NCBI GenBank assembly: GCA_964016885.1
Contig: OZ024741.1
Location: 29,636,001 to 29,700,000 of the forward strand
Direction: 5' to 3'
Source: Eledone cirrhosa
Lineage: Eukaryota
DNA: 64,000 bases
Part shown: positions 7,994-9,647 of the stretch, piece after piece
How positions within the stretch are numbered: position 1 is the stretch's first letter
Layout: every line of letters begins with the position of its first letter
Program-made: the position numbers and the translations under genes
Notes under the pieces: generated by a model
Told to the model about the DNA's origin: nothing
Databases searched by the model: none
The model's input: the letters and a program-made list of their open reading frames with translations, nothing else

Positions 7994-9647
7994 CAAATAA
8001 CGAAACGAAATTAAATTTCGTTTCGTTTGTAACTCACTTTTGTATGACTGACGCTTAAACAATTAAGTTAAAAATGTACATCCACATATGTATACTGAAA
8101 TACTAGTATGCATATGAATACACACACGTATACATATGTAGATGTACCGATTTTTTCACTGGTCACTTTACTGTGAGTGTCCAGCTATTCTGTATGTAAA
8201 CACACAGACAAACCGGTTTTTAGAGTCATACTGGTTTTTGAGGAAACACCTTTCCTCTATTCTCCAGAAAGCCAGACAAGGAATATTGAACTAGTTTCGT
8301 TGTTGTTACAACTCATCAGCAATATTTACCTATCTCCCGGCCTTCCTAGAGAATCGTAAAAGCACATATCGTTATATGCTTTTTCTATGAAAATTAGTAG
8401 TGGGCAGACTAATTTGCATAGAGTGTGAGTACGTACCGGTTCAACGGAGACGATAAAAACAAATAACGAAACGAAATTAAATTTCGTTTCGTTTGTAACT
8501 CACTTTTGTATGACTGACGCTTAAACAATTAAGTTAAAAATGTACATCCACATATGTATACTGAAATACTAGTATGCATATGAATACACACACGTATACA
8601 TATGTAGATGTGACCAGTGAAAAAATCGGTACATCTACATATGTATACGTGTGTGTATTCATATGCATACTAGTATTTCAGTATACATATGTGGATGTAC
8701 ATTTTTAACTTAATTGTTTAAGCGTCAGTCATACAAAAGTGAGTTACAAACGAAACGAAATTTAATTTCGTTTCGTTATTTGTTTTTATCGTCTCCGTTG
8801 AACCGGTACGTACTCACACTCTATGCAAATTAGTCTGCCCACTACTAATTTTCATAGAAAAAGCATATAACGATATGTGCTTTTACGATTCTCTAGAAAG
8901 GCCGGGAGATAGGTAAATATTGCTGATGAGTTGTAACAACAACGAAACTAATTCAATATTCCTTGTCTGGCTTTCTGAAGAATAGAGGAAAGTTGTTTCC
9001 TCAAAAACCAGTATGACTCTAAAAACCGGTTTGTCTGTGTGTTTACATACAGAATAGCTGGACACTCACAGTAAAGTGACCAGTGAAAAAATGGGTACAT
9101 CTACATATGTATACGTGTGTGTATTCATATGCATACTAGTATTTCAGTATACATATGTGGATGTACATTTTTAACTTAATTGTTTAAGCGTCAGTCATAC
9201 AAAAGTGAGTTACAAACGAAACGAAATTTAATTTCGTTTCGTTATTTGTTTTTATCGTCTCCGTTGAACCGGTACGTACTCACACTCTATGCAAATTAGT
9301 CTGCCCACTACTAATTTTCATAGAAAAAGCATATAACGATATGTGCTTTTACGATTCTCTAGAAAGGCCGGGAGATAGGTAAATATTGCTGATGAGTTGT
9401 AACAACAACGAAACTAGTTCAATATTCCTTGTCTGGCTTTCTGGAGAATAGAGGAAAGGTGTTTCCTCAAAAACCAGTATGACTCTAAAAACCGGTTTGT
9501 CTGTGTGTTTACATACAGAATAGCTGGACACTCACAGTAAAGTGACCAGTGAAAAAATGGGTACATCTACATATGTATACGTGTGTGTATTCATATGCAT
9601 ACTAGTATTTCAGTATACATATGCGGATGTACATTTTTAACTTAATT
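7990..9647. mobile_element. Retrozyme-like non-coding element: ~2.2 tandem 466-bp HHR units (+, 8611-9647) preceded by ~1.3 inverted units (-, 7990-8610)
   Basis: Period 466 (8883 vs 9349), one HHR per full unit, both outer ends in (TA)n, no credible ORF. Confidence 0.85.
9382..9426 (+). ncRNA. Minimal type-I hammerhead ribozyme (other copies: 8916-8960 +, stem III mutated; 8282-8327 -)
   Basis: AATATTG-CTGATGA-GTTGT-aaca-ACAAC-GAAA-CTAG-TT-CAATATT: 7-bp stem I, 5-bp stem II, palindromic stem III, GUU cleavage triplet. Confidence 0.85.

What the first reader, a model, noticed from the sequence alone, without database searches (positions are those of the whole stretch)
8822..8922. Conserved structured module upstream of the hammerhead in both 466-bp members
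Seen, in HHR-sense orientation, in both members: (1) hairpin TATGCAAATTAG-[different 11/12-nt loop]-(C/T)TAATTTTCATA with the same C-U mismatch (8822-8856, 9288-9322, 8386-8420 and 42987-43022); (2) a second hairpin AAAG..CTTT (aaaagcatat-aacgat-atgtgctttt-like vs gaaagtatatactttc); (3) GG(G/C)AGAT(A/G)GGTAAA right before stem I. The first arm contains a perfect octamer ATGCAAAT facing an ATGAAAAT. Inference: an unannotated functional element, either an RNA signal (RT recruitment, ligation or stability) or paired POU/Oct DNA sites acting as an internal promoter that makes tandem units self-transcribing.
Basis: partly seen in the sequence, partly recalled or inferred. Interest (0 to 1): 0.8.

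Follow-up and report, generated by a model that had tools for sequence, protein, structure and literature searches.

The report
Octamer hairpin in octopus retrozyme repeats
Two diverged families of a short ribozyme-carrying repeat, likely from an octopus, share an almost unchanged octamer-containing hairpin just upstream of the ribozyme; it is likely part of a built-in promoter, while another piece of the flagged "module" is simply an arm of the ribozyme itself.

Summary
Both look like non-LTR retrozymes moved by Penelope-like elements: canonical type I hammerhead, head-to-head inversion, (TA)n targets, and defined 3' ends.

The "module" splits in three. Part 3 is the 5' strand of the hammerhead's extended stem I, so it is not new. 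Part 2 is an RNA hairpin with two compensatory changes and a TATA-like word. Part 1 is nearly frozen in sequence: 1 of 24 positions differs and 0 of 11 pairs compensate, against 37 of 110 and 16 of 55 in ten other homologous helices. That points to sequence-specific recognition.

Best reading (about 50%): the perfect octamer arm is an Oct/POU DNA site of an internal Pol II promoter, with newt satellite 2 as precedent. Main rival (about 30%): an RNA docking element for the Penelope reverse transcriptase, since neighbouring helices around the 3' ends are frozen too. No RNA data or further families were available, and within family A the block is no more invariant than its flank.

The parts
7987..9647 (.). 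Insertion A: head-to-head inverted array of 466-bp non-coding units (minus arm 7987-8611, plus arm 8610-9647) with 3' ends pointing outward into TA repeats
8822..8856 (+). Hairpin 1, first plus-strand copy: perfect octamer at 8823-8830, one-mismatch inverted octamer at 8848-8855
9288..9322 (+). Hairpin 1, second plus-strand copy (octamer 9289-9296, second site 9314-9321)
8386..8420 (-). Hairpin 1, inverted-arm copy
42987..43022 (-). Hairpin 1 of family B; 23 of 24 arm positions identical to A, the one change turns G-C into G-U in the 3' arm
8859..8884 (+). Hairpin 2 (also 9325-9350; B 42969-42984 minus). Two of 7 shared pairs are compensated. It holds the only TATAW word of unit A (9332; B 42979), 10 and 8 bases after the second octamer-like site
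8888..8922 (+).
8923..8953 (+). Type I hammerhead core, loop 2 UAACAA, predicted cut after 8953. This copy carries G>A at 8951, which breaks the stem III palindrome; the copies at 9389-9419 and 8289-8319(-) are intact
9420..9449 (+). 3' strand of stem I, which pairs with part 3 and the linker (first copy 8954-8983)
9175..9188 (+). Small CUUA/UAAG stem-loop holding the proximal insertion 3' ends (unit positions 9181 and 9186); B's right arm ends in the loop of the homologous hairpin. Inferred reverse-transcription start
9205..9283 (+). GUGAG/CUCAC-closed domain directly upstream of hairpin 1, holding the distal 3' end (9255; 12 contigs in run X1, and A's left arm)
42559..43445 (.). Insertion B: 467-bp unit, minus arm 43290-42559 and short inverted plus arm 43277-43445 ending in (TA)n
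42902..42932 (-). Hammerhead core of family B (GUA triplet, U-U at the base of stem II)

Best explanation
Both families share a nearly unchanged octamer hairpin about 100 bases upstream of a type I hammerhead motif, and its first arm is likely an Oct/POU-factor DNA site of an internal RNA polymerase II promoter that would let each repeat unit transcribe itself. Steps: (1) SHOWN in sequence: the units are non-coding repeats with an intact hammerhead motif, inserted head-to-head in TA repeats with defined 3' ends. (2) SHOWN by alignment: part 3 is the ribozyme's extended stem I. (3) INFERRED: the octamer, possibly with the second one-mismatch site and the TATA-like word in hairpin 2, starts transcription roughly 50-60 nt before the cut site. 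(4) INFERRED from studied retrozymes: read-through of tandem units is cut by the hammerheads, probably as dimers, into monomers that circularise and fold into the conserved branched structure. There the octamer arm is paired off, which freezes the second arm except for wobble changes. (5) INFERRED: a TA-targeting Penelope-like RT/endonuclease copies the RNA from internal start sites 33-107 nt upstream of hairpin 1 and builds the inverted arrays, so internal units arrive with their own promoter.
For: Hairpin 1 differs at 1 of 24 arm positions with 0 of 11 compensated pairs, against 37 of 110 and 16 of 55 in ten other homologous helices (Fisher p=0.002 and 0.053; binomial 0.0007, or 0.008 after allowing for 11 helices). 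The true ribozyme stems change freely and compensate (stem II 3 of 4, proximal stem I 3 of 7). The 5' arm is 12/12 identical and holds a perfect octamer; the only change is a wobble in the 3' arm. An exact octamer lies in only 2% of random 300-base stretches of this window. Unit A's single TATAW word lies 10 bases after the second site and B has one 8 bases after it. Precedent: newt satellite 2 is transcribed by Pol II from an internal snRNA-type promoter (passage in PMC2220036; that this promoter includes an octamer is recalled), and Penelope's pLTR holds the TSS and promoter (PMC8557442 passage).
Against: Only two independent sequences, and hairpin 1 was picked after the fact as the best-conserved helix. 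Helices P, Q and the small start-site hairpin are nearly frozen too (2/14, 0/10, 0/8) with no octamer in them. In run X1, 0 of 16 variant sites fall in 9288-9352 (chance 0.09), but the flank 9170-9275 is also variant-free and longer. The one variant listed in the block (9295 A>G; about 1% of depth in X1, one low-depth contig in X10) damages the octamer but keeps the RNA pair. Sea-urchin U6 uses an E-box, not an octamer, as distal element, so octamer use in molluscs cannot be assumed. The best PSE-like candidate downstream is explained as RNA helix P with a compensatory change. Unit B has 14 TATAW words, so that word is weak evidence.
Confidence: 0.5

Rival explanations
1. Hairpin 1 is an RNA element read by the Penelope-like RT/endonuclease or a host protein. 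With the neighbouring frozen helices it forms the docking domain that positions reverse transcription at the internal start sites, and the octamer match is coincidence.
For: It folds with pair probabilities of about 0.8-1.0 in both circular monomers. It sits 33 nt 3' of the distal insertion end and 4-5 nt from helix Q, inside a cluster of frozen helices around both 3' ends. The anole PLE needs RNA to +172, downstream of its first start site at +111-118 (PMC11167929). Both observed changes in the arms are wobble-compatible.
Against: Conserved stems with a less conserved loop of 11-12 nt fit a DNA site better than an RNA-protein site (general knowledge). No similarity above shuffles between the A block and six other PLE stretches of the window, including the full-length element; 1 of 12 comparisons reached P=0.005, in AT-rich sequence outside hairpin 1.
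Confidence: 0.3
2. Hairpin 1 has no sequence-specific role. It is one of many helices kept for general self-pairing of the RNA circle, perhaps a fossil inversion junction, and its high identity reflects shared ancestry or recent exchange between families.
For: The whole unit is strongly structured (z=-11.7 and -8.2). PLE inversion centres in this window create new hairpins, and one at 770-813 yields an ATGAAAAT/ATTTTCAT pair that a related copy lacks. The permutation P for the spaced runs is only about 0.01.
Against: 1 of 24 differences against 34% in other helices (p about 0.008 after correction). The loop and immediate flanks differ between A and B, which argues against a recent exchange of the block.
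Confidence: 0.2

Closest known systems
Non-LTR retrozymes of metazoans (Cervera and de la Pena 2020, PMC7229834; Li, Clavereau and Pollet 2026 preprint 10.64898/2026.07.22.740005)
   Same: Short non-coding tandem units under 45% GC, each with a canonical type I hammerhead with a small palindromic stem III, highly self-paired predicted circles, and PLEs in the same genome. B's U-U at the base of stem II recalls HHR_Amex2.
   Different: Units are 466/467 bp (coral, mussel and axolotl units are about 170-400). No promoter element is mentioned in the parts read (the word 'promoter' occurs only for T7 in the first paper and not at all in the second). Here the arrays also show PLE-type inversion and two 3' ends.
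Newt satellite 2 (Coats, Zhang and Epstein 1994; seen only as a cited title and a one-sentence description in PMC2220036)
   Same: Hammerhead tandem repeat transcribed by Pol II from an internal promoter; the octamer in that promoter is recalled, not read.
   Different: Vertebrate. Recalled as octamer plus PSE, whereas no PSE could be shown here. This block has an inverted second site and a TATA-like word instead.
Penelope-like element pLTRs and tails (PMC8557442, PMC11167929, PMC4209133)
   Same: Inverted 5'-truncated arm, microsatellite/AT-rich targets, two internal RT start sites giving a 'tail', and a promoter region in the repeat upstream of the hammerhead.
   Different: No ORF, a canonical rather than minimal hammerhead, a tail of 69-74 nt rather than 30-40, and no exact octamer within 300 bases upstream of ten other hammerhead-like PLE sites checked in the window.
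Rfam Hammerhead_HH9 (RF02275)
   Same: Core, 6-bp stem I, internal loop and distal stem align with part 3 (E=4.8e-8 for A, 0.04 for B).
   Different: Scores of 37 and 18.5 bits are below the gathering score of 52; stem III is minimal.

Membership tests
Non-LTR retrozyme | Short tandem non-coding units of low GC | tested here: met
   466/467 bp, GC 35-36%; stop-free frames over the block region give no real homologue
Non-LTR retrozyme | Type I hammerhead in the units | tested here: met
   2 of 3 A copies intact, 1 mutated at 8951; insertion B holds a single hammerhead
Non-LTR retrozyme | Highly self-paired predicted circular monomer | tested here: met
   z=-11.7 (A) and -8.2 (B) against 60 dinucleotide shuffles each
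Non-LTR retrozyme | Self-cleavage and accumulation as circular RNA | not testable with these tools
   needs RNA data or bench work
PLE-mobilised element | Inverted arm, TA-microsatellite target, two defined 3' ends | tested here: met
   the full-length PLE at 46857-52119 has the same anatomy
PLE-mobilised element | Sequence shared with an autonomous partner | tested here: inconclusive
   no match to the PLEs of this window; the rest of the genome is not held
snRNA-type promoter (newt satellite 2 kind) | Octamer distal element | tested here: met
   perfect octamer in 4 of 4 module copies
snRNA-type promoter (newt satellite 2 kind) | PSE about 140-180 bp downstream of the octamer (spacing from PMC3958870) | tested here: inconclusive
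   no mollusc PSE consensus found; the conserved block at that distance is explained as helix P
snRNA-type promoter (newt satellite 2 kind) | Factor binding and a mapped transcription start | not testable with these tools
   needs EMSA, reporter or CAGE/RACE
Hammerhead_HH9 (RF02275) | Score at or above gathering threshold | tested here: not met
   37 and 18.5 bits against 52; same architecture, not a member

The most novel reading that the evidence does not exclude
Octopods carry abundant circular-RNA retrozymes with a dual-coded promoter: an Oct/POU site plus TATA that works as DNA and is hidden as a hairpin in the RNA circle. It sits next to mapped reverse-transcription start loops used by a TA-targeting Penelope element. 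This would be a complete transcription-and-mobilisation blueprint for an invertebrate retrozyme, convergent with or homologous to newt satellite 2.
Probability: 0.3. Interest if true: 0.7.

Novelty: new member of a known kind. Interest (0 to 1): 0.45.

Why it matters
Animal retrozymes are abundantly expressed, but in the papers read their promoters are undefined outside newt and schistosome, and mobilisation by PLEs is a hypothesis. This element offers a concrete 35-base candidate promoter and defined candidate RT start sites (insertion ends at two places about 70 nt apart, one of them in a stem-loop shared by both families). Both open questions become testable with small constructs. No paper on an octamer in a retrozyme or PLE repeat, or on octopus retrozymes, turned up in searches of the open-licence library; subscription papers and old scans were not searched.

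Tried and rejected
More family members were sought and none found. No genome is held. Of 296 loci screened, 7 had a hammerhead-like fold under my filter, none with an upstream octamer, and BLAST found only 3 low-complexity 32-base hits. Four metagenome loci (L024, L025, L031, L042) look like PLE-type hammerheads with GGTAAA, but the pattern forced that word and no PLE ORF was found in them. A profile search with the two module-spanning frames gave 2 chance repeat proteins. Earlier scan notes had no look-alike.

No RNA holder was listed. The 20 runs in 17 coded organisms that hold unit A are not taken as horizontal spread: raw reads of one such organism gave 0 laid reads in 1,938 million letters (no test, by the tool's note), and X10 and X18 hold only 11 and 3 low-depth contigs, so carry-over between libraries is possible.

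Family A variants show no signal for pair retention: 7 of 11 paired changes are kept, against 54% expected (18 changes tested, and the X18-only change at 9175 was left out). An early helix tally had an offset error for hairpin 2, and one search had one for the UUUA hairpin; one search supersedes both. A splice-donor reading of GGTAAA was set aside because the word pairs in stem I in both families. A PSE reading of the CCGTATG block was set aside as helix P. The octamer-like pair upstream of the hammerhead at 853 was rejected as an inversion artefact. Coats 1994 is not held and the supplement of PMC7229834 could not be read; it may hold retrozyme sequences that bear on octamer presence.

Full report
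Observation. The four coordinates are exact; the spaced pattern occurs 4 times in the window and never in 100 shuffles. Three hits belong to insertion A (7987-9647) and differ at 1 of 101 positions in the block. The fourth belongs to insertion B (42559-43445, 467-bp unit). A and B align at 61% over 501 columns, so the evidence is a comparison of two sequences. Two 11-base identical runs spaced like the arms arose in about 1% of permutations, and a single 12-base run in 39%. The octamer alone is not enriched in the window.

Context. The best homologue of a 1217-aa ORF at 47383-51036 is an Octopus vulgaris protein (72% identity), so the window is likely octopod. [quoted passage not shown] Both insertions are head-to-head inverted arrays whose 3' ends face outward into TA repeats. 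In run X1 (1116 contigs laid) loose ends run into TA repeats behind 9181 (2 contigs), 9186 (5) and 9255 (12); 39 further loose ends were not shown. The window's own A ends fall at the equivalents of 9181 and 9255, and B's right end falls in the loop of the same small hairpin as 9181. The full-length PLE shows the same design with two ends about 55 bases apart. Inverted arms, microsatellite targets and a tail between two RT start sites are PLE hallmarks (PMC8557442 passages; PMC11167929 parts 1-2 of 4). Units are non-coding, 35-36% GC, with a type I hammerhead, which fits non-LTR retrozymes (PMC7229834 passages and parts 3-4 of 6; preprint 10.64898/2026.07.22.740005 parts 1-2 of 5 and passages; PMC4209133 part 1 of 4, passages and 2 of 3 supplement files).

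Part 3 is the ribozyme. Nothing reached Rfam gathering scores. At E-value level both units align to Hammerhead_HH9, with GUAA on the internal loop of stem I (E=4.8e-8 and 0.04; in B the distal stem aligns with gaps). AGG/GGG pairs with CCU 3' of the cut in both, and the linker between hairpin 2 and part 3 pairs with the downstream strand through different but compensated sequence (duplexes of -26.5 and -19.9 kcal/mol). Loop 2 is UAACAA in both. This is the loop 1-loop 2 architecture described for canonical type I hammerheads. Variants at 9360 and 9364 keep this stem, while 9408 breaks a stem II pair.

The whole unit is a conserved fold. Circular monomers fold at z=-11.7 and -8.2 with the same topology. 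In ten homologous helices other than hairpin 1, 16 of 55 pairs show compensatory change and 37 of 110 positions differ. Hairpin 2 behaves like these (2 of 7). Hairpin 1 does not: 0 of 11 and 1 of 24 (p=0.053 and 0.002; about 0.008 after allowing for 11 helices). The helices were paired up by hand on shared anchor words, which favours similarity. Three helices around the 3' ends (P, Q and the small start-site hairpin) are also nearly frozen, so hairpin 1 is the longest frozen helix but not the only one.

Mechanism. A helix frozen in sequence suggests that something reads the bases. The 5' arm is 12/12 identical and holds a perfect octamer with TAT/TA flanks typical of POU sites (recalled). The only change is a wobble in the 3' arm. 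A TATA-like word follows the second site by 10 (A) and 8 (B) bases; it is A's only such word, but one of 14 in B. This recalls the octamer-TATA spacing of vertebrate H2B promoters (recalled) and would put a start about 58 and 48 nt before the cut (inference). Newt satellite 2 is transcribed from an internal snRNA-type Pol II promoter (PMC2220036 passages; the original was not held, and its octamer is recalled). I therefore favour a dual-coded element: a DNA site whose RNA copy is paired off in the circle (0.5).

Evidence against and rivals. Within family A the block has 0 of 16 variant sites, but that is weak (0.09-0.29) and the 106-base flank upstream is also variant-free. The single listed variant in the block harms the octamer and keeps the pair. 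Sea-urchin U6 uses an E-box (preprint 10.1101/2023.01.09.523328 passages) and shrimp U6 is described with PSEA and TATA (PMC11530655 passage). No PSE could be shown here. The hairpin lies 33 nt from the distal 3' end, where an RT-docking RNA could extend, so the RNA rival keeps 0.3 and a no-specific-role reading 0.2.

Novelty. The element is a new member of a known kind. Searches returned no paper; one search returned two (one read in passages, where 'octamer' meant multimers; one seen as a listing only); one search listed seven, none about octopus retrozymes by title or abstract start, though the giant squid genome paper counts 235 hammerhead-1 matches (PMC6962438 passages). Supplements not seen (PMC7229834, bioRxiv) could hold sequences that bear on this. 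The candidate promoter and the mapped 3' ends are what lift it above ordinary. With two independent sequences and no RNA evidence, interest is moderate.

Noticed in passing
window 46857-52119: Apparently intact Penelope-like element (ORF 47383-51036 minus, 1217 aa) with near-identical flanking repeats, a hammerhead-like motif at 51238 and 47109, an inverted arm and TA targets. Candidate helper for the retrozymes, but no shared sequence was found.
   Followed up: partly
window 52990-56850: Second PLE family (YRDD motif, ORF interrupted by stops) with duplicated flanking repeats; a further PLE remnant lies at 45313-46404.
   Followed up: no
window 42425-42559 and 52582-52703: B's left arm leaves the unit 4 nt before hairpin 1 and continues into the TA-flanked tail of another family (92% identical to 52582-52703). 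This looks like a template switch and may mark an RNA end at the foot of hairpin 1.
   Followed up: partly
window 660-1040 and 1530-1870: Two small inverted insertions of another hammerhead-like family; their inversion centres differ and form new hairpins.
   Followed up: partly
window 9500-9519 and 42805-42829: Hairpin with the loop UUUA closed by G-C in both families and one compensated pair, about 90 nt after the cut site. B's inversion centre lies in it. Candidate RNA signal; it also reads as a Forkhead-like word (recalled).
   Followed up: partly
window 9419: In run X1 about 8% of depth has C here, giving the classic GUC cleavage triplet instead of GUU.
   Followed up: no
window 8610-9075: The first plus-strand unit carries four private changes (8627, 8951, 8978, 8993), one of them in the hammerhead core, so it may be a dead unit.
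   Followed up: partly
L024, L025, L031, L042: Metagenome contigs with related PLE-type hammerheads that share the palindromic stem III and an upstream ATATG-CAGC-like word, probably host-animal DNA.
   Followed up: partly
window 36954-39474: Long GGT-rich tandem array with several open frames (Thr-rich, Gly-Asp-rich); not examined.
   Followed up: no
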